A DNA stretch of 64,000 nt, taken from NCBI GenBank assembly GCA_035292605.1, contig DATDPT010000155.1, forward strand, positions 1,408 through 65,407. Direction: 5' to 3'. Origin of the DNA: Acidimicrobiia bacterium. GTDB taxonomy: Bacteria > Actinomycetota > Acidimicrobiia > Spongiisociales > ZC4RG35. Positions 3,155-12,547 of this stretch are shown one piece after another. Every line of letters begins with the position of its first letter. The first letter of the stretch is position 1. The translations under genes and the position numbers were made by a program. The notes under the pieces are model-generated. The model was not told the origin of the DNA. It worked only from the letters and a program-made list of their open reading frames with translations, and searched no databases.

Positions 3155-3577
3155 TCAGTGGGCGTGATCGTGATCATGGTTATGAGCGTGGTCATGGTCG
3201 GGGTCGGCTGCCAGCTCCGCCTCGTGGGCGGCCAGTTGGGCCCGTACCTCGTCCATGTCCACCTCGCGTACCTGTGAGATCAGGTCCTCCAACATGTCGG
3301 GGGGCAGAGCGCCCGGCTGTGAATAGAGGACTATCTGGTCCCGGAACACCATCAGAGTCGGAATCGAGCGGATCCCGAACGCCTGGGCCAGCTCCTGCTG
3401 GTCCTCGGTGTCGACCTTGGCGAACACCATGTCCGGATTGCTCGCCGACGCAGCCTCGTAGTTCGGCGCGAATGAACGACACGGGCCGCACCATTCAGCC
3501 CAGAAGTCGACGAGCACGGTCGCGTTGTCCTGGATCGTCTGGTCGAATGTCTCTTTGTTGAGTGCCACTGTGGCCAT
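3155..3577 (-). CDS. trxA: thioredoxin with C-terminal His/Asp-rich tail
   Basis: Internal ATG (aa 49 of track ORF 3155..3721), preceded by AGAGG. WCGPC active site in VLVDFWAEWCGPCRSF. The tail is DPDHDHAHNHDHDHAH. The upstream part of the track ORF is the repeat/promoter region, not coding. Confidence 0.9.
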   Translation of the reverse strand: MATVALNKETFDQTIQDNATVLVDFWAEWCGPCRSFAPNYEAASASNPDMVFAKVDTEDQQELAQAFGIRSIPTLMVFRDQIVLYSQPGALPPDMLEDLISQVREVDMDEVRAQLAAHEAELAADPDHDHAHNHDHDHAH

Positions 3578-3609
3578 TTCAAAACCTCTGCTGTCTAGTC
3601 GGACAGGAG

Positions 3610-3635
3610 AACCATCTGAATTGTTCCGGGATTCC
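3610..3635 (-). promoter_or_regulatory. SigH/SigR-type ECF promoter for thioredoxin (GGAAT-N18-GTT)
   Basis: The minus strand reads GGAAT cccggaacaattcagatg GTT, with exact 18-nt spacing, about 30 nt upstream of the trx ATG. trx genes are classical SigR/SigH targets in actinobacteria. Confidence 0.6.
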
Positions 3636-3705
3636 CCTTTGGTGGGGTTGTGATGAAGGGGGAGTGGGAGGGGACGGGGAGTGATGTGGGAGTGAGGTGA
3701 ATGGA

Positions 3706-3733
3706 TTGACTCATAATCCACGTTCTCTCCACT
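3706..3733 (+). other. dif-like site S1: good left (XerC-type) arm, degenerate right arm
   Basis: TTGACTCATAA|TCCACG|TTCTCTCCACT. The left arm and 6-bp centre are identical or near-identical to S2. Similarity to S2 and S3 stops exactly after the centre. Confidence 0.6.
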
Positions 3734-3760
3734 GATTCTCTCGGTTTCTTAGGAGACGGT

Positions 3761-4462
3761 GTGAGAAACGAGCTGAACGACCTGATTCGAGCAATCGTGG
3801 ATACCCGATTCGCAGTCACCAACGTGGCGAACCGTGTGATCCAGGATCTGCGTCAAGGATACCGGACTTCTTACCGGGACCACACATGGGGCAAGGAGCA
3901 CTACGAGGCCATGGAGAAGGTGCACCTAGGAGTGGAAGCCGCATGGCACTACGCGAAGTGGCTGCAGATTCCAGAGGCTGACTTCCGACTGGAAGAAGGA
4001 TCTGCAGCACTCGCAGGACTACTGGACGATCTGGAAATGTTCTTCGGAGATCGCTTGACCAGTCCCGAACTATCCATAGCGTCGCCCGCCGTCATCCGCC
4101 ATACAGAAGGAGCAGAGATGGCAAGCAAACACACAGTGGCGAGCCTGGCCGAGTGGATCCAGGACCTGTCCGACAGAATCGATGAGGCAGTCGGGAACCT
4201 GAACGACCAGCTGTCAGAGCTGGAGCGAGGTCTCGACCATGCGATCGAGTCAGCAGAGAGCGGTCAGAAGGACGGTCGCAAGAAGCGGACCATGACCGAC
4301 GAGCAACGGAAGGAAGTTGGACGTCGTCTACAGCAGGCCAGAGCCGACAAGCTGGGCTTGCAGACGATTGAGCAGCTGCATGCCCTGAAGTTGAGACCAG
4401 GTCAGCAGCCCACCAAGGCGCAGATCACGAAGGTGAAGAAAGAGCTCCCAGTCAAGAGCTGA
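3761..4462 (+). CDS. hypothetical protein (233 aa, helical, basic C-terminus)
   Basis: Track ORF, GTG start 7 nt after AGGAG, followed by a clean terminator. No family recognised. Confidence 0.6.
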   Translation: MRNELNDLIRAIVDTRFAVTNVANRVIQDLRQGYRTSYRDHTWGKEHYEAMEKVHLGVEAAWHYAKWLQIPEADFRLEEGSAALAGLLDDLEMFFGDRLTSPELSIASPAVIRHTEGAEMASKHTVASLAEWIQDLSDRIDEAVGNLNDQLSELERGLDHAIESAESGQKDGRKKRTMTDEQRKEVGRRLQQARADKLGLQTIEQLHALKLRPGQQPTKAQITKVKKELPVKS

Positions 4463-4483
4463 GCGAAACCGACTGGGAAGACA

Positions 4484-4518
4484 GAGGCCTCGCCGAAAGG
4501 CGGGGTCTTTGCCTCTTT
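4484..4518 (+). terminator. rho-independent terminator
   Basis: The CCTCGCC-GAAA-GGCGGGG stem is extendable to about 10 bp and is followed by TCTTTGCCTCTTT, 22 nt after the stop at 4462. Confidence 0.65.
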
Positions 4519-4783
4519 GATCGTTACCTATCGCAATCTACTGCTATCATCCAGAGGATGCGAAACATGATCGCCCGAATGTTCTGCAGGCTGGCCGACC
4601 ACTTCGGCGGCTGCCCTGAGCCATCCGGCCCTGTCCTTTACGAACGAACCATCACACGGCTCTAGTTCTGGGCTCCTCCTGACCCAGGAGCCTCTTGCTC
4701 TGTCGGATGCGTCTTTACCATCCCCGGGACTTCTGTATTACGCGCTTGTAATTTGCCAGGACCCAATGCATCATTGGTGAGTT

Positions 4784-5422
4784 GTGAGTGACTACGTAGC
4801 GCCTGAGTTCAAAGTTGAAGCCTTCAACTGCCCGTATTGCGGTGCATACGCACATCAAGAATGGGACGTGCTGATTGTTCGGCAATACACAAGCTGGGAG
4901 TCGACGGTCGTCTGGATGTCCTCCTGTGCTCATTGCACCCGAAACTCGTTTTGGCATGAAGAGGAAGGGGCGATGGTCTATCCCCGTTACTCGACCGCAC
5001 CACCGCCCAGTCCAGACATGCCCGAACCGTCGGCGCGGTTCTACAACGAAGCACGCGATGTGCTGGATGCTTCGCCGCGTGCCGCTGCAGCCTTGCTCCG
5101 GAGTTGCGTGGAGCAATTGCTGGTTGACCTGGGATTCGAGAATGGAACGCTTAACGACAAGATTGGGGCCCTCGTGAAGGATGGGCTTCCTGAGCGTTAT
5201 CAGAGAATCTTTGATGCGGTGCGGATTACGGGCAACGGCATTCATCCCGGGCAGATCGAGAGTGACAACCGGGAGATGGCTCTTGCACTCTTCCAGCTCG
5301 TCAATCGCATAGTCGATGAGCGCATCACCCAGATCAAGACGGAGGAAGCAATCTGGGACGTGCTCCCTGAGGGCGCAAAGGAAGCGGTGGCTCGTCGGGA
5401 TAAGCCGCCGGTGGAAAGCTGA
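4784..5422 (+). CDS. DUF4145 domain protein with N-terminal zinc-ribbon (CPYCG...CAHC)
   Basis: Track ORF, GTG start after GGTGAG. ARFYNEARDVLDASPRAAAALLRSCVEQLL...LNDKIGALV...FDAVRITGNGIHPG fits the DUF4145 pattern (A..l.R..lE..l...L...I..L...l..iR..GN...H). Confidence 0.65.
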   Translation: MSDYVAPEFKVEAFNCPYCGAYAHQEWDVLIVRQYTSWESTVVWMSSCAHCTRNSFWHEEEGAMVYPRYSTAPPPSPDMPEPSARFYNEARDVLDASPRAAAALLRSCVEQLLVDLGFENGTLNDKIGALVKDGLPERYQRIFDAVRITGNGIHPGQIESDNREMALALFQLVNRIVDERITQIKTEEAIWDVLPEGAKEAVARRDKPPVES

Positions 5423-5447
5423 GGAACCTATTCCTGCCGTCTGGGAC

Positions 5448-5972
5448 ATGAGTATCGAGAGCGACAACCGCAAGGTTGCTGAATGCGAATTTCAAAAGTT
5501 GTCAGCCTTGCTTGGATCAGACGGGCTTGATGGACTCAGATTCAGCGTCGAACTGCATGAGTTCGCGTACGTCGTGTTCGGACGATTTCACGAGGAAGGC
5601 GACAAACACTGGCTTGATGTAGCGCCGAAGACCCTGGAAACCTGTTCCCCCGAAAAGGTCGAGGACGTGGTTCGTCACGAGTACGCCCACTACCTGCACT
5701 GGCGGGAGATGGGACAGGTCAAGAATGACCACGGACCAGAATGGCAAGCTCTCTGCCTTCTAACAGGAGCCGTCCCGACATACCTAGGGATCGACGAGCA
5801 GCCTCCCGATGAAGTCTGGTTCGACCTCTACATCCGATGTGACAACTGCTACGGGCACCAGACTCCTGATTTCTGCAATGAAGGTGACATCAGAGTGCGG
5901 GAGTACATCTGCCCTTTGTGTCGCCAGCACTTCTGGGCTAGGCCTACATCAGAACTGCGCACACAGCATTGA
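5448..5972 (+). CDS. SprT-like zinc metalloprotease domain protein with C-terminal zinc ribbon
   Basis: Internal ATG of track ORF 5316..5972, 25 nt after the DUF4145 stop. HEYAH (HExxH) is followed by DHGPEW, and CDNC...CPLC lies at the C-terminus. Confidence 0.6.
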   Translation: MSIESDNRKVAECEFQKLSALLGSDGLDGLRFSVELHEFAYVVFGRFHEEGDKHWLDVAPKTLETCSPEKVEDVVRHEYAHYLHWREMGQVKNDHGPEWQALCLLTGAVPTYLGIDEQPPDEVWFDLYIRCDNCYGHQTPDFCNEGDIRVREYICPLCRQHFWARPTSELRTQH

Positions 5973-5992
5973 GATAGTTAGCTAACCGTGGG

Positions 5993-6025
5993 GCTGCCGG
6001 GCCGGACACGATAGGGGCCGGCAGC
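5993..6025. terminator. hairpin between convergent genes (possible bidirectional terminator), degenerate copy of the GGCGGAYGGGATAGAGCC loop motif
   Basis: GCTGCCGG / CCGGCAGC 8-bp stem with a 17-nt loop GCCGGACACGATAGGGG. It lies between stop 5972 (+) and stop 6045 (-). No clear U-tract. Confidence 0.35.
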
Positions 6026-6044
6026 TGCTCGTTGAACCCGCCTG

Positions 6045-6245
6045 TTAGCGGGGTCGAGTTCTCTCAAGCTCCGTATGGGCTTCGTCCAGAGCGTCGTTTA
6101 GCTTGTCGTAGCCAGAAAACTTCAGATCGACTGCTAGCGCCATCATGTCGATGATGAGGTTGAAGTCGTTCTCCCATTTCGTGTCCCGCTCAGGATCGAC
6201 GTAGTCTTCCCTCTGCTCAGGGGTGCGGTAATCGCGGTAGGACAT
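6045..6245 (-). CDS. hypothetical small protein (66 aa)
   Basis: Track ORF with a helical, acidic sequence. Weak RBS. Confidence 0.4.
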   Translation of the reverse strand: MSYRDYRTPEQREDYVDPERDTKWENDFNLIIDMMALAVDLKFSGYDKLNDALDEAHTELERTRPR

Positions 6246-6399
6246 ATATCTACGGTAGTCAGCTAAACGGCGGATGGGATAGAGCCCGGTAGCTAGTCCG
6301 CCTCAGATTCAGCGTTACCATGCCCGGGGTCAGCTGTCACATGTTCCCGAGCAGCTGGCATATCTCCTTGTGACTGGAGCTGTTGCGCACTGCCTTCGG

Positions 6400-6606
6400 C
6401 TAGACCTTCGTTGCGATCCTCGGCCGGACAATCAGGGGCAGTTTGTGTGTCGGGCAGGAGTTGACCGTCGAATCGAGTGGCATCCACCCGCAGGTTGGGC
6501 ACTGACGTTGTGTGGCCCTGGACTTCGGCGCTAGGTAAATCAGGGCCTTGCGTGGCGGATCCACCTGGTTCTGGAACTCTTCGATGTCATCCTCGAGATC
6601 TCGCAT
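6400..6606 (-). CDS. hypothetical small protein with CPxCG...CPxH zinc-ribbon-like knuckles (68 aa)
   Basis: Track ORF containing CPTCGW...SCPTH. It competes with overlapping ORF 6293..6502, so the call is uncertain. Confidence 0.35.
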   Translation of the reverse strand: MRDLEDDIEEFQNQVDPPRKALIYLAPKSRATQRQCPTCGWMPLDSTVNSCPTHKLPLIVRPRIATKV

Positions 6607-6648
6607 GAGGCTGAAGACACTCTCACCATCTGGTAGCCAATGCTGGCC

Positions 6649-6885
6649 CTAAGCTTCCAATATTCCCAACTGGCGATGCTCCTCCCGAAGAAGTCGGAGG
6701 TGGTCGTCGAGATGTTCCTGCGCCTCAACCGTGCGACGCAAAGCCTCTGTGTTGACGGCACACTCATCACTGCCCTTGACCGGGCGTTGTAGCAACTCAC
6801 ACTTCAAGAGGCTGTGAGGCCACCCGTTCTCGGCATAGCGGCATTCATCACAAGTCCATCTCGACGCAGTCATCGCCTTCTCCAT
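6649..6885 (-). CDS. hypothetical Cys-containing small protein (78 aa), first gene of the leftward operon
   Basis: Track ORF. ATG is preceded by GAGG and lies directly downstream of a palindrome overlapping a TAAACT -10-like hexamer. Confidence 0.5.
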   Translation of the reverse strand: MEKAMTASRWTCDECRYAENGWPHSLLKCELLQRPVKGSDECAVNTEALRRTVEAQEHLDDHLRLLREEHRQLGILEA

Positions 6886-6892
6886 GCCTCAG

Positions 6893-6910
6893 AACTACAC
6901 ACTTGTAGTT
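6893..6910. promoter_or_regulatory. perfect 7-4-7 palindrome (operator candidate) overlapping the leftward promoter
   Basis: AACTACA-CACT-TGTAGTT. The minus-strand TAAACT (6912-6907) overlaps it. A second palindrome GCGCATC-G-GATGCGC lies at 6930-6944. Confidence 0.4.
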
Positions 6911-7267
6911 TACAGAGGGCCACGCTGTCGCGCATCGGATGCGCACGCTCAGGGTGTGGCGCGGAGAACACAGACCAGTCGGTGACAACACACAGGAGGA
7001 GGGGCTGCTGGCGGACGGGATAGAGCCAGCAGCCTCTTCGCCTCGTAGCGGGTTCGTAGTCCATACGTAGCTAGTTCAGGTAGCTATGGCGTCTGTATCT
7101 GTATGTATGCGTAAGTTTCGTTAGCTTCTGGTGCGTATTTGGCTGCGCGTATATGCCATCGGCAGAAATACGAAAAGAAATCTGATATAGACACGACATA
7201 GACAGGGGCGTTTCAGAAGCCCTAACTAAGGCTAGGCGAAACTAACTCGACGGTCGACGTGGAGCGT

Positions 7268-7296
7268 TTGACCATATTGTGACCGTGGTATACGGT
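7268..7296 (+). promoter_or_regulatory. rightward promoter, probably giving a leaderless mRNA
   Basis: TTGACC, 17-nt spacer, TACGGT (TANNNT). ATG 7303 lies 7 nt after the -10 element, which is the usual geometry of leaderless actinobacterial transcripts. Confidence 0.45.
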
Positions 7297-7302
7297 CGCC
7301 TT

Positions 7303-8673
7303 ATGTCATCTGAACGCTTCTCGACGGAGGGATACCGACAGATACCGCGCCCACCCGGCCTGCCACCCATCATGGCCGATGAAGCCTTCCATGGGCTAGC
7401 CGGCGACATAGTGAACGCCATTGCCCCGTACACCGAAGCCTCCAAGGAGGCTCTCCTGATGCAGCTGCTGGCCGGCATCGGCAACATCGTTGGATCGGGC
7501 ACTCACTTCGTGACGGAAGATGATCGTCATCCCGCACGCCTATTCGTGTTGCTGGTGGGAGACACCAGCCTCAGTGGCAAGGGCACTTCTTGGAGTCGCG
7601 TAAGGGCGGTTCTACGAAAGGTGGATGCACCGTGGACGAAGGATCGGGTTCTCGGCTCGCTTTCGTCTGGTGAAGGGCTGATTAAGTACATCAAGCGAGT
7701 GCAGGGCGATCCGGATGAAGTCTTTGCTCAACTCCGACGGGCCAAAAGCAACGAAGAAGTAAGCGGAATCTTACAGGCCCACCCAGTCCTGGACGTCGGA
7801 AACAGCCAGCACCCTTCGCTCAACGGGCGCTTGATGCTTGTGCAACAAGAGTTCGCCAGGACTCTTCGGGTCATGAAACGGGAGAACAACACCCTGCCGG
7901 ATGTGTTGCGTGAAGCCTTCGATCAATCGGAGCTGACCAACCCGACTGTGAAGGCGGACTTTGTAGAAGGAGTCCACTTCTCCGCTGTCGGTCACATCAC
8001 CGAGGAAGAGCTGCTCCAGTTGTTCGCCAAAATTGACATCGTCAATGGGCTAGGCAATCGCTTCCTGTTCGTGATGACCTCCCGTCGACAGGAAGTCCCG
8101 AGAGGCATGCCTGTTCCTGACGAAGACATGGAGCCACTGATCGACAAGTTGCAGAAAGTCGTCGAATTAGCTCAAACGGAACAGCTCATAGATTTCGACG
8201 ACGACGCCAAGGAGTATTGGGACGAAGCCGTATACCACGTCATAACAGGTCCAACTCCAGGGCTTGTCAGTAAGTTGCTGGACCGGGCCCGAGCCCATAT
8301 TCGTCGCTTGGCCTTGCTCTTTACCATCCTGGATGACAACGCTGAGGCCACCACAATAGAACACCTTGAAGCGGCTCTAGCTGTATGGGAATACTGCGCC
8401 AATTCTGCCAAGTACCTCTTCGACTACGAGAACAGCACCGGAGACCCGGATCTGGACTTGGTAGTGCAAGCCTTGGGAAGTGCAGGTCAGTTGAGGCGGT
8501 CTCAGATCACAAGCGAGGTGTTCAAGGGAAACAAGGGTCGCTACACGACTGTCAAGCTGCGAGTCGAATCCGTCCAGAAACGCGGCGAAGAGCTTGAGGT
8601 GCTCGAGGTTCGGGCAGGTAAGCGCAAAGGCAAGAGGGGTGCCATACCCCAGATATGGATACTGAAGGAGTAG
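7303..8673 (+). CDS. DUF3987-type replication protein (primase/helicase-associated family of phages, plasmids and satellites)
   Basis: Track ORF 7279..8673. GTG 7279 lies inside the predicted promoter, so ATG 7303 is preferred. EAFHGLAGDIVNAIAPYTEASKEALLMQLLAGIGNIVG...ARLFVLLVGDTSLSGKGTS matches the DUF3987 N-terminal signature as I remember it. Confidence 0.7.
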   Translation: MSSERFSTEGYRQIPRPPGLPPIMADEAFHGLAGDIVNAIAPYTEASKEALLMQLLAGIGNIVGSGTHFVTEDDRHPARLFVLLVGDTSLSGKGTSWSRVRAVLRKVDAPWTKDRVLGSLSSGEGLIKYIKRVQGDPDEVFAQLRRAKSNEEVSGILQAHPVLDVGNSQHPSLNGRLMLVQQEFARTLRVMKRENNTLPDVLREAFDQSELTNPTVKADFVEGVHFSAVGHITEEELLQLFAKIDIVNGLGNRFLFVMTSRRQEVPRGMPVPDEDMEPLIDKLQKVVELAQTEQLIDFDDDAKEYWDEAVYHVITGPTPGLVSKLLDRARAHIRRLALLFTILDDNAEATTIEHLEAALAVWEYCANSAKYLFDYENSTGDPDLDLVVQALGSAGQLRRSQITSEVFKGNKGRYTTVKLRVESVQKRGEELEVLEVRAGKRKGKRGAIPQIWILKE

Positions 8674-8675
8674 GC

Positions 8676-9053
8676 ATGGACAACAGCATGTTGGACGAAC
8701 TCGACGTCAATTGGGAGCAGATGGCCAAGACTCTGAACAGTCACTACAACGCAACGTTCACGCCGGCCGCCGTCAAGGGAATGGTTCGGAGGTCGTTCGA
8801 CAAGACCTACTCAGAGGCCGTTCTGAAGAGCTTGCGGGAGCAGTTTCGTGCCCTTGGTCTCAACGAAGCACAGGTGGAAGAAGCGACCTTGCGGGCAATA
8901 GCTCTGCCGCAGGCAAAAGTCATTGAGACAAAGGCTGTGCAGAAGGCCGTTGACACGCTGGGAGACGGGCCTGTAACGAAGAGCACACGCCGGTCGAATG
9001 GGCACAAGTCCGGTACAAATCGAGACATGTACGGGCGCAACAGAGAGTTCTAG
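8676..9053 (+). CDS. hypothetical protein (125 aa), paralogous to the C-terminal half of 10363..10998
   Basis: ATG 8676 follows GAAGGAG, 3 nt after the previous stop. It shares the W-x-Q-[MI]-A...Y.A..T block and the C-terminal RD[ML]YGRNR motif with the 211-aa protein. Confidence 0.55.
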   Translation: MDNSMLDELDVNWEQMAKTLNSHYNATFTPAAVKGMVRRSFDKTYSEAVLKSLREQFRALGLNEAQVEEATLRAIALPQAKVIETKAVQKAVDTLGDGPVTKSTRRSNGHKSGTNRDMYGRNREF

Positions 9054-9125
9054 TGATGACTGGCTATATATTTTTGCTCGTAGTGCTCGCGATACTTAGC
9101 GTTGCGCTAGCCACAGTTAGTTTTC

Positions 9126-9183
9126 GAGGCAGCTTCGCCGTTGTTCGGGTGTCACGTCCTTTCCTCCTCGGCGGAGCTGCCTC
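9126..9183. repeat. long imperfect inverted repeat (15-bp stem, ~28-nt loop)
   Basis: GAGGCAGCTTCGCCG ... CGGCGGAGCTGCCTC (14/15 complementary), in the intergenic gap upstream of the small-ORF/terS pair. No U-tract. Confidence 0.5.
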
Positions 9184-9204
9184 GACTAGAGACTGCCAAA
9201 GGCG

Positions 9205-9435
9205 ATGGGGGAGCGGATGACTGATTCGGTGATCGTTGCCGTACCGCGCAAGGCGGTAGTCAGTCTGACCCAAGCTCTTGAGCGCAGCACTGGCGAGACA
9301 TGGGGTGAGCAGAGAGTCAAAGACGAGTTCTTACTGCCAGTGACCAGGGACCTATGCGAAGGCACCTCCCTACTCGAAGCTGAAGCCAAGGTCTGGAGGC
9401 AGCTGGGCCTTCTACACGAGGACAGCGATGTCTAA
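9205..9435 (+). CDS. hypothetical small protein (76 aa; alternative start 9217)
   Basis: Track ORF. Its end overlaps the terS start by 8 nt, suggesting translational coupling. Confidence 0.4.
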   Translation: MGERMTDSVIVAVPRKAVVSLTQALERSTGETWGEQRVKDEFLLPVTRDLCEGTSLLEAEAKVWRQLGLLHEDSDV

Positions 9436-10006
9436 GCGGTCGCTGGCTGAGCTGCGGAGTAGGGGAGCGCGGGTACGGACTAAGAAGCCGCCTGCTACGG
9501 CAAATGGGACAGCAGTCGACTCTCGCTATGCAGATCGTGATGTATTTGGCAGCTTCGGCCTGACCCGCCGTCAAGCAATGTTCGTACTTGAGTACATCTC
9601 TGACCCGGGCAGTCAGACTCACGCAGCTGTGCGTGCGGGATATTCGCCGCAGTCCGCTGCAGCACAAGCGACTGAGCTCTTGAAGCAACCCAACGTTAAG
9701 AGGGCTGTTCAGCAGATACAGGAGAGGTTGAGGGAGAACACGGAGATAACTGCAGAAGCCGTCCTCAAACGACTCAGTCAGATCGCCTTCGACACTCGAC
9801 CCAAACCGCGAAGTGCTGATCAGGTCAAAGCACTGGAGCTAATGAGCAAGTGGCTCGGACTCGAAGTGTCTAACGGCAATGTCCAGGTTGAGCTTGTCGT
9901 TCACTATGAGAGCGATCGAGAGCGCGAGCTGTACATAGAGGATGTGGAGCTCGAAGAAGAGGGTATCCAAGATGCGCACATGATCGGGATGGGTGCCGAT
10001 GACTGA
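9428..10006 (+). CDS. terS: phage terminase small subunit (Terminase_2/P27-like)
   Basis: Track ORF of 192 aa. LTRRQAMFVLEYISDPGSQTHAAVRAGYSPQSAAAQATELLKQPNVKRAV is the classic terS HTH signature. No large terminase gene is present in the window. Confidence 0.75.
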   Translation: MSKRSLAELRSRGARVRTKKPPATANGTAVDSRYADRDVFGSFGLTRRQAMFVLEYISDPGSQTHAAVRAGYSPQSAAAQATELLKQPNVKRAVQQIQERLRENTEITAEAVLKRLSQIAFDTRPKPRSADQVKALELMSKWLGLEVSNGNVQVELVVHYESDRERELYIEDVELEEEGIQDAHMIGMGADD

Positions 10007-10009
10007 GTT

Positions 10010-10037
10010 AGTTGACATAAGAAAGGTTATGGACCAC
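10010..10037 (-). other. dif-like site S4, inverted relative to S1-S3, with a different centre
   Basis: The plus strand reads AGTTGACATAA|GAAAGG|TTATGGACCAC. The minus strand reads GTGGTCCATAA|CCTTTC|TTATGTCAACT, and that right arm is identical to the right arm of S3. It starts 4 nt after the terS stop. Confidence 0.5.
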
Positions 10038-10362
10038 TCCTGTGATTCGCGGACATTCCTGTTCCGAGTTGGGACCCATCGAAGTTCGCGTCGCACTTCA
10101 TGGACGGCGGAGCATCTAGCGAACGGCGCATTCGCCTATTCGCTCCAGTCCGGGCCACAGCGTTCAGATAACACGATCTTTGATAGCGGTCCGCACCCCA
10201 TCCGCGGAATCAGGAAATCGAATCCGTGTAGCTCCACATCGCGTCTCCGTTTAGCTCGGCAAGGATCCGCGGTCCATCCGATTTTCGCGATCCGGAACCC
10301 ACCGCATGCCTGCTCGATTCAGCTTCGCCTATGTCCCGTTGTCTAAGTAAGGAGATACAGCA

Positions 10363-10998
10363 ATGAACTTGCCATCAAATCCGTGTTCAACATGCGGCTC
10401 CGTCTTGTTCTGGAAACGAGCAGGTGAGTTCACGTGTGCCAAGCATGATCCGCCGGCTGACCCAATCGGAGAGCAGTTCTACGTAACGAAGGCTGCCATG
10501 GAGACTGCGAAGAGCATTGTGCAAGCTGCGAGTAAGGACAGCGTGCTCGATGCAGCTGCAGAGAGACCGACTGCACCCTGCCCGATAGACAACAGCGAAG
10601 TGTTCTGGCTGAGCAATGCGACCGACTTGTGGTCCTGCCTGCAGCACAACTATCCGTCCGACAAGGAACTGGTTGCAGAGACCTGGAACGTGAGGACACA
10701 ACAGAGACCGAGCATCAAGACAGGAGACGACATGGACTGGAACCAGATAGCGGCAAGCATCAATGACGAATACGGAGCGAAGCTGACTGCCAGCGAAGTA
10801 GAAGTGATAGCCAGCAACGTGGAGAAGGCTCAGTCGCTACTGACTCCGCATTCCTCTGTGACAGCTGTCCGAGCCATGACCGGAGGCCTACCCGCTGCCG
10901 TGACCATTGCTCGACGTATGACGACTGCTCAGAAGGGAGCAGCGAAACCGAGTTCAGATCGAGACTTGTACGGACGCAATAGGAAGGAACGCGAATGA
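10363..10998 (+). CDS. hypothetical protein (211 aa) with two N-terminal Cys/His modules and the RDLYGRNR tail
   Basis: Track ORF. ATG is preceded by a strong RBS (TAAGGAG). It contains the internal repeat PC..C....FW......C..H.(P). Confidence 0.6.
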   Translation: MNLPSNPCSTCGSVLFWKRAGEFTCAKHDPPADPIGEQFYVTKAAMETAKSIVQAASKDSVLDAAAERPTAPCPIDNSEVFWLSNATDLWSCLQHNYPSDKELVAETWNVRTQQRPSIKTGDDMDWNQIAASINDEYGAKLTASEVEVIASNVEKAQSLLTPHSSVTAVRAMTGGLPAAVTIARRMTTAQKGAAKPSSDRDLYGRNRKERE

Positions 10999-11519
10999 CC
11001 ACGACCACTAGAGCAGACATATCGTTGCAGTACGTCCGGGACCGGCTCACGGATCCGCACTCGGACGCTGTGTATCAGCAGGAGAGCGAGAAGCTTGAGC
11101 TGCTTGAGATGGAGCTGAAGAAGATCGAACGCAAGGCGATCGGTACTCAGAAGCGTCGACGAGACATGCAGATGGAGACTTCAGAGGACGTTGTCAAAGC
11201 ATCCAAGCTGGAAGCAGAGGTCGACTTGCTGCATCGTCAAGCAGAGAATCAGCACTCGCTCGTTCTGTCTCAACAGCTGAAGGTGAACGAAGCTCTCAGT
11301 GATGCCAAACGAGTGACCGCTGAAGAAGCCGCAGCTCTATGGCACGAGGAAGTGCTCCCAGAAGTGATTGATGTAGTGGAGCGCTTGAAGGAGCTGCAGA
11401 GTATCTACACCACGTTGCGTCATGCTGGTGGAAAGCTCAGTCCCGAGTTCCCGGTCTATCGGTTTCCTGAGCTGTGGCTGAAGAAGCGACTGCAAGAGCG
11501 AGACGATCGGGACAGCTGA
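10995..11519 (+). CDS. hypothetical coiled-coil protein (174 aa)
   Basis: Track ORF with an ATGA overlap to the previous gene. Heptad-rich sequence (ELLEMELKKIERK...). Confidence 0.55.
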   Translation: MTTTTRADISLQYVRDRLTDPHSDAVYQQESEKLELLEMELKKIERKAIGTQKRRRDMQMETSEDVVKASKLEAEVDLLHRQAENQHSLVLSQQLKVNEALSDAKRVTAEEAAALWHEEVLPEVIDVVERLKELQSIYTTLRHAGGKLSPEFPVYRFPELWLKKRLQERDDRDS

Positions 11520-11854
11520 ACCCATGACCGATTGGGTGAAGCGCTGTCCTCATTACGACAAGCTGCGAACTCCGTAAGGCCCTTCGATTTCCGTGATTCT
11601 TTCGGATCGATCCGCAGAACCTGCAGGATATCTAACGACTCCATCTGCACGACGCTTACATTCGCATCGCTGAAAGTGGTCGATTCCCGTGTCGGTTATC
11701 CCATTCTCTTGGTAGATGGGCTGCGTTACCCGAACAATGGGAGAGCTGAACCGAATCTTCGCTTGACCAGTTGAGGATTCTCAGTACGTTCGCTGGCTAA
11801 TTGACAACCGAATACTGAGAGATGAAGTGATCGGCCAGCGTGGTCGGACAGGAG

Positions 11855-11880
11855 AACCACCTTATTTGACTCCGGATTCC
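11855..11880 (-). promoter_or_regulatory. second exact SigH/SigR-type promoter (GGAAT-N18-GTT), reading into the right end of module A
   Basis: The minus strand reads GGAAT ccggagtcaaataaggtg GTT. No convincing ORF lies downstream on the minus strand. A CTCAGTA...TACTGAG inverted repeat follows at 11781-11818. Confidence 0.5.
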
Positions 11881-11954
11881 CTTCCCTTTGGTGTTTCTTG
11901 TGGGGATGCGAGAGGTTTGAGCTGTGGTCGTGGCGTGGGTTGGTAGTTCGTGAG

Positions 11955-11982
11955 TTGACCCATAATCCACGTTATGTCAAGT
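11955..11982 (+). other. dif-like site S2, complete (best candidate for a functional dif)
   Basis: TTGACCCATAA|TCCACG|TTATGTCAAGT. CATAA-N6-TTATG with near-palindromic outer arms (TTGAC...GTCAA). Compare E. coli dif GGTGCGCATAA|TGTATA|TTATGTTAAAT. Confidence 0.6.
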
Positions 11983-12114
11983 TGGCTCAGGTAGGGCTAG
12001 AAAAGTCAACCACCGCTCTCCCAGCTTTGACCCACCTCATACAAACTTGAGGCCCGATCACAGGGAGGGAGCCCGAGAAGGAAGTGTGGAACAGGTGGCA
12101 AGTCAGTCGACGTG

Positions 12115-12547
12115 TTAACCGCACAGGGTTTCGGCGTCGATGAGGCTGGTCGAGGCTTCGGCGATGGTTGCGTTGCCATCCTCGGCGGCCGCTGCGATCC
12201 CCAGCACTCGGGAGATATCGTCGACTAGCACTTGACCCATGGCGGCGGATCCGGTCATCGAATTGACACAGGAGAGGGCGAGGTCATTGATTATCCCTGG
12301 CGCAAACTCTCCGTCCCGCCATGCCGCCATCTCGGACATGGTCAACAACGCCCAGTCGTAGGGGCTCAGGGGCAGCCTTCGTGGTGGTGGTCGGGCGGGT
12401 AGTCGTGGTCGTCGGAGGCGCTGTTGTCGTCGTGGTGGCTTCGGATGTTGTGCTGACGGACCCTGTGGTGGTCGTAGTGGCAAACCCACTACATCCCACC
12501 GTCACGACAAAGAGGGTCCCGGTGGCGACGACTCTCAGCGCTCTCAT
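12115..12547 (-). pseudogene. Thr-linker lipoprotein, frameshifted at a C4/G4 run (~12361-12364)
   Basis: Signal and lipobox (MRALRVVATGTLFVVTVGCSG) plus the Thr linker are in track ORF 12284..12547. The globular C-terminus (YDWALLTMSEMAAWRDGEF...) is in the frame of ORF 12115..12489. Removing one C of GAGCCCCTAC joins them. The ATG overlaps the upstream stop (ATGA). Confidence 0.6.

What the first reader, a model, noticed from the sequence alone, without database searches (positions are those of the whole stretch)
4784..5972. Two-gene cargo: zinc-ribbon DUF4145 protein plus SprT-like Zn-metalloprotease (candidate defence or abortive-infection pair)
Seen in sequence: two co-oriented genes lie 25 nt apart. 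They have their own upstream region (after a terminator at 4484-4518) and a hairpin downstream, and they sit at the accessory end of module A. Gene 1 has CPYCG...CAHC followed by a DUF4145-like helical domain. Gene 2 has HEYAH...HGPEW (SprT-like) followed by CDNC...CPLC. Established knowledge: DUF4145 is frequently fused to or next to restriction and abortive-infection components, and mobile-element accessory slots are hotspots for anti-phage systems. Inference: this could be a sensor plus protease effector pair. I do not recognise this pairing as a named defence system.
Basis: partly seen in the sequence, partly recalled or inferred. Interest (0 to 1): 0.6.

Follow-up and report, generated by a model that had tools for sequence, protein, structure and literature searches.

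The report
Known RAZR defence gene plus unrelated protease
The first gene is a clear relative of RAZR (PD-T7-4), a known one-protein anti-phage RNase, and the SprT-like protease gene after it is an orphan neighbour found next to no other RAZR gene, so this is a known defence gene with a passenger and not a new two-gene system.

Summary
Both genes exist as described: 4784-5422 (212 aa) and 5448-5972 (174 aa), 25 nt apart, with every quoted motif present.

Gene 1 is a full-length homologue of RAZR/PD-T7-4. PADLOC gives E=1.4e-68. The solved E. coli RAZR (PDB 9y9c) matches at E=3.4e-47 with 40% identity. The four zinc cysteines and the catalytic Arg/His of the HEPN (DUF4145) RNase are kept. RAZR works alone: its zinc finger binds ring-shaped phage proteins such as portals, it assembles around them, and the RNase then shuts down translation (abortive infection).

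Gene 2 is a real but very divergent SprT-like zinc protease with a C-terminal zinc ribbon. Its best relative among 1.84 billion representative proteins is 36% identical.

The pairing is not conserved. No SprT-like ORF lies within 4 kb of any of 83 other RAZR genes. No protein family recurs among 146 immediate RAZR neighbours. The nearest related element has RAZR but no SprT.

The pair is cargo of a low-GC, integrase-less, satellite-like element in an Acidimicrobiia-type genome.

Verdict: new member of a known system plus an unexplained passenger. This scan has met RAZR genes before on other DNA.

The parts
4482..4518 (+). Intrinsic terminator of the preceding 233-aa gene. It separates that gene from the RAZR transcription unit.
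   Evidence: 13-bp stem plus T-rich tail. Fold -28.9 kcal/mol, z=-4.64, 0 of 200 shuffles as good.
4519..4783 (+). 265-nt non-coding leader, the presumed promoter region of gene 1. It holds no conserved small partner ORF.
   Evidence: No sigma-70-like site found. Only ORFs of 35 aa or fewer. Not conserved at the DNA level in the related element L001. No Rfam match.
4784..5422 (+). Gene 1: RAZR (PD-T7-4) homologue, 212 aa. N-terminal Cys4 zinc-finger domain (C16, C19, C48, C51; nt 4829-4936), a linker, and a C-terminal DUF4145/HEPN RNase domain (residues 88-169; nt 5045-5290).
   Evidence: PADLOC PDLC04109: E=1.4e-68, residues 1-207 against model positions 1-208 of 211. PDB 9y9c_OA: E=3.4e-47 over residues 2-208, 40% identity. 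Pfam DUF4145. All 23 invariant family columns are kept.
5222..5245 (+). HEPN catalytic motif R147-ITGNGI-H154 (Rx6H). It corresponds to R146 and H154 of E. coli RAZR.
   Evidence: Alignment to 9y9c. R147, N151 and H154 are invariant in 26 homologues. R146A and H154A abolish defence in E. coli RAZR (PMC13017515). It is one residue shorter than in the other 25 aligned homologues. The same RITGNGIH is present in the nearest relative L001.
5448..5972 (+). Gene 2: orphan SprT-like zinc metalloprotease, 174 aa. HEYAH (nt 5676-5690) and a third ligand in HGPEW (5730-5744). C-terminal Cys4 zinc ribbon CDNC...CPLC (5838-5921).
   Evidence: Pfam SprT-like E=9.5e-9, above the cut-off. NCBIfam SprT E=3.7e-7, below its cut-off. 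H77, E78, H81, H95 and W99 are conserved in 26 relatives. The profile matches the human Spartan protease domain 6mdx at E=9e-7. The AlphaFold model (pLDDT 77 overall, 80-93 over residues 1-110) has Spartan 6mdw as its best fold match: E=6.9e-4, TM 0.51. No PADLOC hit.
5992..6026 (.). GC-rich hairpin between gene 2 and the convergent 66-aa gene (6045-6245, minus strand). A possible bidirectional terminator.
   Evidence: 9-bp GC stem, -28.4 kcal/mol, but z=-0.65 against shuffles and no T tail. This is weak.
3706..11982 (+). Context: low-GC (54-58% against 62-65%) integrase-less element that carries the pair near its left end. Left to right it holds a 233-aa unknown gene, RAZR, SprT-like, three small leftward genes, a DUF3987 replication protein, a small terminase and two unknown genes. 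It is bounded by direct dif-like 28-bp sites.
   Evidence: GC profile and per-gene GC/GC3. Pfam and PHROG calls. Repeats D3 and D4 and the site sequences. The boundary interpretation comes from earlier notes e1-2854126 and e1-2854127 and was only partly checked here.

Best explanation
Gene 1 is a self-sufficient RAZR (PD-T7-4) abortive-infection gene carried as cargo on a satellite-like mobile element.

By homology to the E. coli protein, it forms resting oligomers. Its N-terminal zinc-finger domain binds a ring-shaped phage protein, such as a portal dodecamer or a Gp77-like ring. RAZR then assembles around that ring, and the curvature switches on the HEPN (DUF4145) RNase through R147 and H154. 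The RNase cuts tRNA, rRNA and mRNA, translation stops, and the infected cell fails to release phage.

Gene 2 is a separate passenger: a divergent phage/MGE-type SprT-like zinc protease with a zinc ribbon. It is probably co-transcribed with gene 1, but RAZR does not need it. Its own target is unknown. The most likely target is a DNA-bound or nucleic-acid-associated protein, as for Spartan/Wss1-type enzymes.

Shown here: the homology, the conserved catalytic and zinc residues, the lack of any conserved partner, and the mobile-element context. Inferred: activity, the trigger, co-transcription and the role of gene 2.
For: - Family membership: PADLOC PD-T7-4 matches end to end at E=1.4e-68. The solved RAZR chain 9y9c_OA (24 copies in the entry) matches at E=3.4e-47 over residues 2-208 with 40% identity.
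- Key residues: C16, C19, C48, C51, R147, N151 and H154 fall in invariant or near-invariant columns of 26 homologues.
- Mechanism and single-gene sufficiency: PMC13017515 and PMC9519451.
- No partner: 0 SprT-like ORFs within 4 kb of 83 RAZR loci, even at E<=10, while the positive control in the window scores 5.7e-41. Among 146 flanking ORFs, the commonest Pfam families occur only 3 times each: integrase, HTH_3, HTH_19 and HNH.
- Nearest relative: L001 has the same dif-like end, the 233-aa gene homologue and RAZR (68% aa), followed by an unrelated 83-aa membrane ORF in place of SprT.
- Gene 2 is an orphan: the best relative among 1.84 billion representatives is 36% identical at E=1e-7, and the word-indexed search of 5.8 billion proteins found nothing else. 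The three relatives whose contigs were looked up sit in a phage-like contig or in ordinary chromosomal settings, none beside DUF4145.
- RAZR as mobile cargo elsewhere: Streptococcus prophages and a Vibrio filamentous phage.
Against: - No experiment or expression data exists for this locus.
- The 25-nt spacing, the shared orientation and the lack of a terminator between the genes fit an operon, so a local functional link cannot be excluded.
- The HEPN motif is one residue shorter (Rx6H) than in the other 25 aligned homologues.
- Two E. coli oligomer-interface residues differ: V21 is A and R184 is Q. Q is common at the second position in the family.
- The clade is thinly sampled. Only one relative above 50% identity was found, and that copy appears frameshifted near its 3' end.
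Confidence: 0.8

Rival explanations
1. The two genes form a lineage-specific two-component module. The SprT-like protease modulates RAZR, for example by cleaving RAZR or its phage trigger, by acting as a second effector, or by switching RAZR off when the element itself is packaged by its helper phage.
For: The genes are co-oriented and 25 nt apart with no terminator between them. Both have the element's low GC. Earlier scan notes report that some distant RAZR-like prophage genes have a small conserved partner, so RAZR relatives can acquire regulators. A satellite that needs a helper's capsid has a plausible reason to tame a portal-sensing suicide RNase (inference).
Against: The pairing appears nowhere else: 0 of 83 RAZR loci, 0 of the 3 contexts of SprT relatives that were looked up, and not in the closest related element. 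E. coli RAZR is non-toxic and fully functional alone (PMC13017515). Gene 2 has no PADLOC match. The head-to-head small partner described in those notes is absent here.
Confidence: 0.08
2. Gene 2 is an independent element-borne factor directed at phage or host proteins. It could be a counter-defence or takeover protease of the kind suggested for phage SprT-like peptidases, or a DNA-protein crosslink protease that helps replication of the element. It happens to sit next to RAZR. This is compatible with the best explanation and refines the role of gene 2.
For: The zinc triad and catalytic Glu are intact and a zinc ribbon is present. The fold and profile match the Spartan DNA-protein-crosslink protease domain. 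SprT-like proteins are widespread in mycobacteriophages (PMC12363180). They are patchy and multi-copy in jumbo phages, where host-protein cleavage was proposed (PMC7824862). One relative lies in a phage-like contig with a tandem SprT-like gene. The host genome has a separate, unrelated SprT-like gene.
Against: No substrate, phenotype or close homologue is known. tblastn against 50,697 phage records finds nothing at E<=1e-3. The PHROG hits are weak (4.9e-5, unknown function).
Confidence: 0.55
3. The RAZR copy is a decaying, non-functional remnant on a degenerate element that has no integrase or capsid genes, and the pair has no current function.
For: The element lacks an integrase. The motif carries a one-residue deletion. 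The closest relative's RAZR appears frameshifted. The gene is rare in the phylum: full-length matches in 2 of 401 genomes.
Against: Both ORFs are intact and full length. Every invariant family residue is retained. Rx6H lies within the canonical HEPN Rx4-6H range (PMC13017515). The same RITGNGIH in a relative of about 68% identity argues for a conserved clade feature and against a recent lesion.
Confidence: 0.1

Closest known systems
RAZR (ring-activated zinc-finger RNase), formerly PD-T7-4, of E. coli UMB1727. PDB 9y9c. Vassallo et al. 2022 (PMC9519451) and Nature 2026 (PMC13017515).
   Same: Same length class (212 aa against about 211). Same architecture: Cys4 zinc-finger domain, conserved linker, DUF4145/HEPN domain. 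End-to-end alignment at 40% identity. Catalytic Arg/His and the zinc cysteines are conserved. Single gene with no conserved partner. Carried on a mobile element.
   Different: The host is an Acidimicrobiia-type actinobacterium, where the family is rare (2 of 401 sampled genomes of the phylum). The HEPN motif is one residue shorter (Rx6H). The zinc-finger insert region, which sets specificity in E. coli and Klebsiella RAZR, is divergent, so the trigger is unknown. The carrier is an integrase-less satellite-like element bounded by dif-like sites. An SprT-like gene follows it here.
SprT / Spartan / Wss1-type zinc metalloproteases (Pfam PF10263). Includes bacterial SprT (NCBIfam PRK04351, PRK04860), the human SPRTN protease domain (PDB 6mdw, 6mdx) and the 'SprT-like protease' genes of mycobacteriophages and jumbo phages.
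   Same: HExxH plus a downstream HGxxW third ligand. Predicted minimal zincin fold, with Spartan as the best structural match. C-terminal Cys4 zinc ribbon, as in bacterial SprT. Small standalone protein of about 170 aa.
   Different: Scores far below the NCBIfam equivalog cut-offs (29.9 against 113 bits; 21.5 against 175). At most 36% identity to anything in 1.84 billion representatives. No match in the phage collection. The host has a different SprT-like gene elsewhere. No function can be transferred.
Distant RAZR-like prophage genes with a small head-to-head partner
   Same: Zinc-ribbon plus DUF4145/HEPN gene as cargo of a phage-related element.
   Different: Here no divergent small ORF overlaps the start codon. 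The window's protein is a close, full-length match to bona fide PD-T7-4 rather than a distant relative.

Membership tests
RAZR / PD-T7-4 | Full-length match to the family profile (PADLOC PDLC04109) | tested here: met
   E=1.4e-68, 228.5 bits, residues 1-207 against model positions 1-208 of 211.
RAZR / PD-T7-4 | N-terminal Cys4 zinc-ribbon domain (the infection sensor) | tested here: met
   C16, C19, C48 and C51 align with the family's invariant or near-invariant cysteines and with the zinc-finger domain of 9y9c.
RAZR / PD-T7-4 | C-terminal DUF4145/HEPN domain with the catalytic Arg and His (R146 and H154 in E. coli) | tested here: met
   Pfam DUF4145 at 50.5 bits against a cut-off of 23.1. R147 and H154 align to R146 and H154. 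The spacing is Rx6H instead of Rx7H.
RAZR / PD-T7-4 | Works as a single gene, without a conserved partner | tested here: met
   No family recurs in more than 3 of 146 flanking ORFs of RAZR loci. Experimental sufficiency of the E. coli gene is reported in PMC13017515. Sufficiency of this copy was not tested.
RAZR / PD-T7-4 | Higher-order oligomerisation and activation by ring-shaped phage proteins; RNase activity; abortive infection | not testable with these tools
   Needs biochemistry and phage assays. Interface residues are partly conserved: D179 is D, D180 is E, R184 is Q and V21 is A.
SprT-like metalloprotease (Pfam PF10263) | Profile match above the gathering threshold | tested here: met
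   35.5 bits against a cut-off of 25.6, E=9.5e-9.
SprT-like metalloprotease (Pfam PF10263) | HExxH plus a third His ligand (HGxxW/F) | tested here: met
   H77, E78, H81, H95 and W99 are invariant or near-invariant in alignments A3 and A4.
SprT-like metalloprotease (Pfam PF10263) | Spartan/Wss1-type minimal zincin fold | tested here: met
   Model pLDDT 77. Best PDB match is 6mdw (Spartan): E=6.9e-4, probability 1.00, TM 0.51 over 124 columns.
Bacterial SprT proper (NCBIfam PRK04351 / PRK04860 equivalogs) | Score above the equivalog cut-off | tested here: not met
   29.9 bits against 113, and 21.5 bits against 175. It is not an orthologue of the housekeeping SprT.
   0 of 83 RAZR loci have an SprT-like ORF within 4 kb, which puts a rule-of-three upper bound of about 3.6% on the pairing. 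None of the contexts of 3 SprT relatives holds DUF4145. The nearest related element lacks SprT.
   No PADLOC model matches gene 2 at E<=1. The full-text search found no paper describing an SprT-like defence component.

The most novel reading that the evidence does not exclude
On this satellite-like, integrase-less element the orphan SprT-like protease is a dedicated controller of RAZR. It might cleave RAZR or the helper phage's ring protein, so that the element can be packaged by its helper without setting off its own portal-sensing suicide RNase, while RAZR still aborts infections by non-helper phages. That would be a protease-gated variant of a single-gene defence, seen so far only here.
Probability: 0.06. 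Interest if true: 0.55.

Novelty: new member of a known kind. Interest (0 to 1): 0.2.

Why it matters
- It removes a false lead. The 'unnamed pair' is a named, mechanistically solved single-gene system (RAZR) plus an unrelated neighbour.
- It extends RAZR to an Acidimicrobiia-type genome, where the family is rare. There it rides on an integrase-less element bounded by dif-like sites.
- Together with a RAZR gene on a Vibrio filamentous phage, this hints that Xer-dependent elements also ferry this defence.
- It raises a modest question: how does a satellite that depends on a helper phage's capsid machinery tolerate a defence that fires on portal rings?
- The orphan SprT-like protease is one more example of the large, functionally uncharacterised set of phage/MGE SprT-like peptidases.

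Tried and rejected
- **Close homologues of gene 2.** The word-indexed search of 5.8 billion proteins found only the protein itself. Full phmmer over 1.84 billion representatives found nothing above 36% identity. tblastn against phages found nothing. No co-evolution or dN/dS analysis was therefore possible.
- **Single-sequence AlphaFold of gene 2.** It failed (pLDDT 34). It was repeated with a 23-sequence alignment.
- **An independent copy of the pair.** L110 looked promising but is 100% identical to window 4016-11989, so it is not an independent copy.
- **Related element backbones with other cargo.** I searched 401 genomes of the phylum. The 233-aa gene was found only in the window's own genome. 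The DUF3987 protein has only distant relatives, at 39% identity or less. No hotspot comparison could be made beyond L001.
- **A head-to-head small partner ORF**, as reported for distant RAZR-like prophage genes. None is present.
- **Known RNA families** in 3400-12200. None found.
- **Sigma-70-type promoter.** None found. This is uninformative for this high-GC host.
- **The 218-aa reading of gene 2.** Considered and rejected: it overlaps gene 1 by 107 nt and has an Arg-rich extension that relatives do not support.

Full report
**Observation**

Gene 1 runs 4784-5422 (+) from a GTG, the first start codon after the upstream in-frame stop, and gives 212 aa. Gene 2 runs 5448-5972 (+) from an ATG and gives 174 aa. 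The gap is 25 nt.

Every quoted motif is present: CPYCG and CAHC in gene 1, and HEYAH, HGPEW, CDNC and CPLC in gene 2. Pfam confirms both domain calls above its curated thresholds: DUF4145 at E=2.2e-13 and SprT-like at E=9.5e-9.

The terminator after the preceding gene (4482-4511 plus T tail) is strong, with z=-4.6. The hairpin after gene 2 exists but is no better than shuffled sequence (z=-0.65). No terminator-like site separates the two genes, so one transcript is plausible but unproven.

**What gene 1 is**

The PADLOC library identifies it end to end as PD-T7-4, at E=1.4e-68 over residues 1-207 against model positions 1-208 of 211. PD-T7-4 was found by functional selection in E. coli (PMC9519451). 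In 2026 it was renamed RAZR, ring-activated zinc-finger RNase (PMC13017515).

According to that paper, RAZR is a single protein. Its N-terminal Cys4 zinc-finger domain senses infection by binding ring-shaped phage proteins: Gp77 of SECphi27, or the portal of T7-like phages. It assembles as a 24-mer around the ring. Its DUF4145 domain is a divergent HEPN RNase whose R146 and H154 are essential. Activation leads to RNA cleavage, translation arrest and abortive infection.

The window's protein matches the solved chain 9y9c_OA at E=3.4e-47 over residues 2-208, with 40% identity. In an alignment of 26 homologues from many phyla it keeps all 23 invariant columns, including C16, C19, C51, R147, N151 and H154, and also the near-invariant C48.

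Two details differ. The motif reads R-ITGNGI-H (Rx6H), one residue shorter than in the other 25 sequences. This is still within the canonical HEPN Rx4-6H range, and the closest relative has the same motif. Of the E. coli oligomer-interface residues, D179 and D180 are kept as D and E, R184 is Q (common in the family) and V21 is A.

**What gene 2 is**

It is a genuine but extremely divergent SprT-like zinc metalloprotease with a C-terminal Cys4 ribbon.

- The catalytic set H77, E78, H81, H95 and W99 is invariant or nearly so among its distant relatives.
- A profile of those relatives matches the protease domain of human Spartan (6mdx) at E=9e-7.
- An alignment-based AlphaFold model (pLDDT 77; 80-93 over residues 1-110) has Spartan 6mdw as its best PDB match, at E=6.9e-4 and TM 0.51.
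- It is not an orthologue of housekeeping SprT: it scores 29.9 bits against the 113-bit NCBIfam cut-off.
- The genome has a different SprT-like gene on another contig.
- It matches no PADLOC model.
- It has no relative above 36% identity among 1.84 billion representative proteins, nothing in the word-indexed 5.8 billion proteins, and nothing in 50,697 phage records.

**Is the pair a system?**

I fetched 80 RAZR loci from one-genome-per-species prokaryote assemblies spanning many phyla and archaea. I added the nearest metagenomic relatives and the only other full-length hit in the phylum. An HMM built from gene 2 and its 27 distant relatives finds the window's ORF at E=5.7e-41. It finds nothing in any of the 83 loci within 4 kb either side, even at E<=10. 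A rule-of-three bound puts any such pairing below about 3.6% of RAZR genes.

A Pfam scan of the 146 ORFs immediately flanking these RAZR genes shows no recurrent partner. The most frequent families (phage integrase, HTH_3, HTH_19 and HNH) occur three times each. This fits RAZR's experimentally shown self-sufficiency.

The converse also holds. I looked up the contigs of three relatives of gene 2. They lie in a phage-like contig with a second SprT-like gene in tandem, or in ordinary chromosomal neighbourhoods, and none is near a DUF4145 gene.

The most direct evidence comes from the closest relative of gene 1, at about 68% amino-acid identity, on contigs L001 and L002. It belongs to the same element family. 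The contig opens with a near-identical dif-like site, then a homologue of the 233-aa gene, then RAZR. What follows RAZR is an unrelated 83-aa membrane ORF, not an SprT-like gene.

**Context**

The pair lies near the left end of a low-GC block. Its genes have 54-58% GC and GC3 of 0.59-0.70, against 62-65% and 0.76-0.80 for flanking host genes.

The block also carries a DUF3987 primase/helicase-like replication protein and a lone small terminase. It has no integrase and no capsid genes. It is bounded by directly repeated dif-like sites.

The host is an Acidimicrobiia-type genome. Full-length RAZR is found in only 2 of 401 sampled genomes of the phylum, which is consistent with horizontal acquisition.

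RAZR is also cargo on Streptococcus prophages and on a Vibrio filamentous phage, where the deposited record itself labels the gene PD-T7-4.

**Mechanism and confidence**

I put 0.8 on the reading that gene 1 is a stand-alone RAZR defence and that gene 2 is an unrelated passenger.

Gene 2's most likely role, at about 0.55 and compatible with the main reading, is that of a phage/MGE-type protease acting on DNA-bound or host/phage proteins. This has been proposed for SprT-like genes of mycobacteriophages and jumbo phages (PMC12363180, PMC7824862).

A lineage-specific functional coupling gets about 0.06-0.08. An example would be the protease gating RAZR so that the satellite survives its helper phage's portal. 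Only adjacency supports it.

A decayed, non-functional locus gets about 0.1.

**Limits**

- There are no expression data.
- No multimer prediction was available.
- The clade is thinly sampled. The apparently second copy, L110, is 100% identical to the window and so is not independent.

**Earlier findings of this scan**

The scan has met RAZR homologues repeatedly on other DNA. Some distant prophage versions were reported to have a head-to-head small partner gene. No such ORF is present here.

Noticed in passing
L001 1-2818 (Logan SRR18218240) and L002: This is a smaller relative of the element. It has a dif-like site (GCGCCCATAATCCACGTGATCTCCACT) almost identical to the window's left site 3706-3733. 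A homologue of the 233-aa gene follows, split over two frames (69-581 and 442-822). Then comes a RAZR homologue whose last ~50 codons read in another frame after about nt 1475. These are either frameshifts or assembly errors. The linkage of the dif-like site, the 233-aa gene and RAZR is conserved, while the rest differs.
   Followed up: partly
L109 (PQ189324.1) 9123-9788: A Vibrio filamentous phage (Tubulavirales, 11.5 kb) carries a PD-T7-4/RAZR gene as cargo next to a DUF2726 gene. Filamentous phages are the classic Xer/dif-integrating elements, which parallels the dif-like sites that bound the window's element.
   Followed up: no
window 3761-4462: The 233-aa gene just inside the left dif-like site has no Pfam or PHROG match. 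It was found in none of 400 other genomes of the phylum. It is conserved next to the dif-like site in L001, which suggests an element-specific function tied to that end.
   Followed up: partly
L110 (Logan SRR3989295, 7974 bp) = window 4016-11989: An independent assembly of the same sequence breaks just past the right dif-like site (11955-11982). This is what an assembler does at a repeated boundary. The gene caller there started RAZR at an internal Met (149 aa), which drops the zinc-finger domain. The 212-aa form is the one supported by homology.
   Followed up: yes
G000:C50:25128-25316 (-), locus L095: This is a second SprT-like gene in the same genome (150-aa open frame, HELAH motif), unrelated in sequence to gene 2. 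It is presumably the resident chromosomal copy.
   Followed up: partly
L088 2804-3861: A phage-like metagenomic contig, packed with small co-oriented ORFs, carries two SprT-like genes in tandem. One of them is among the nearest relatives of gene 2 (31% identity).
   Followed up: no
window 6269-6286 and 7010-7027: An 18-nt direct repeat (GGCGGAYGGGATAGAGCC, 94% identical) lies at two non-coding positions of the element's leftward operon and control region.
   Followed up: no
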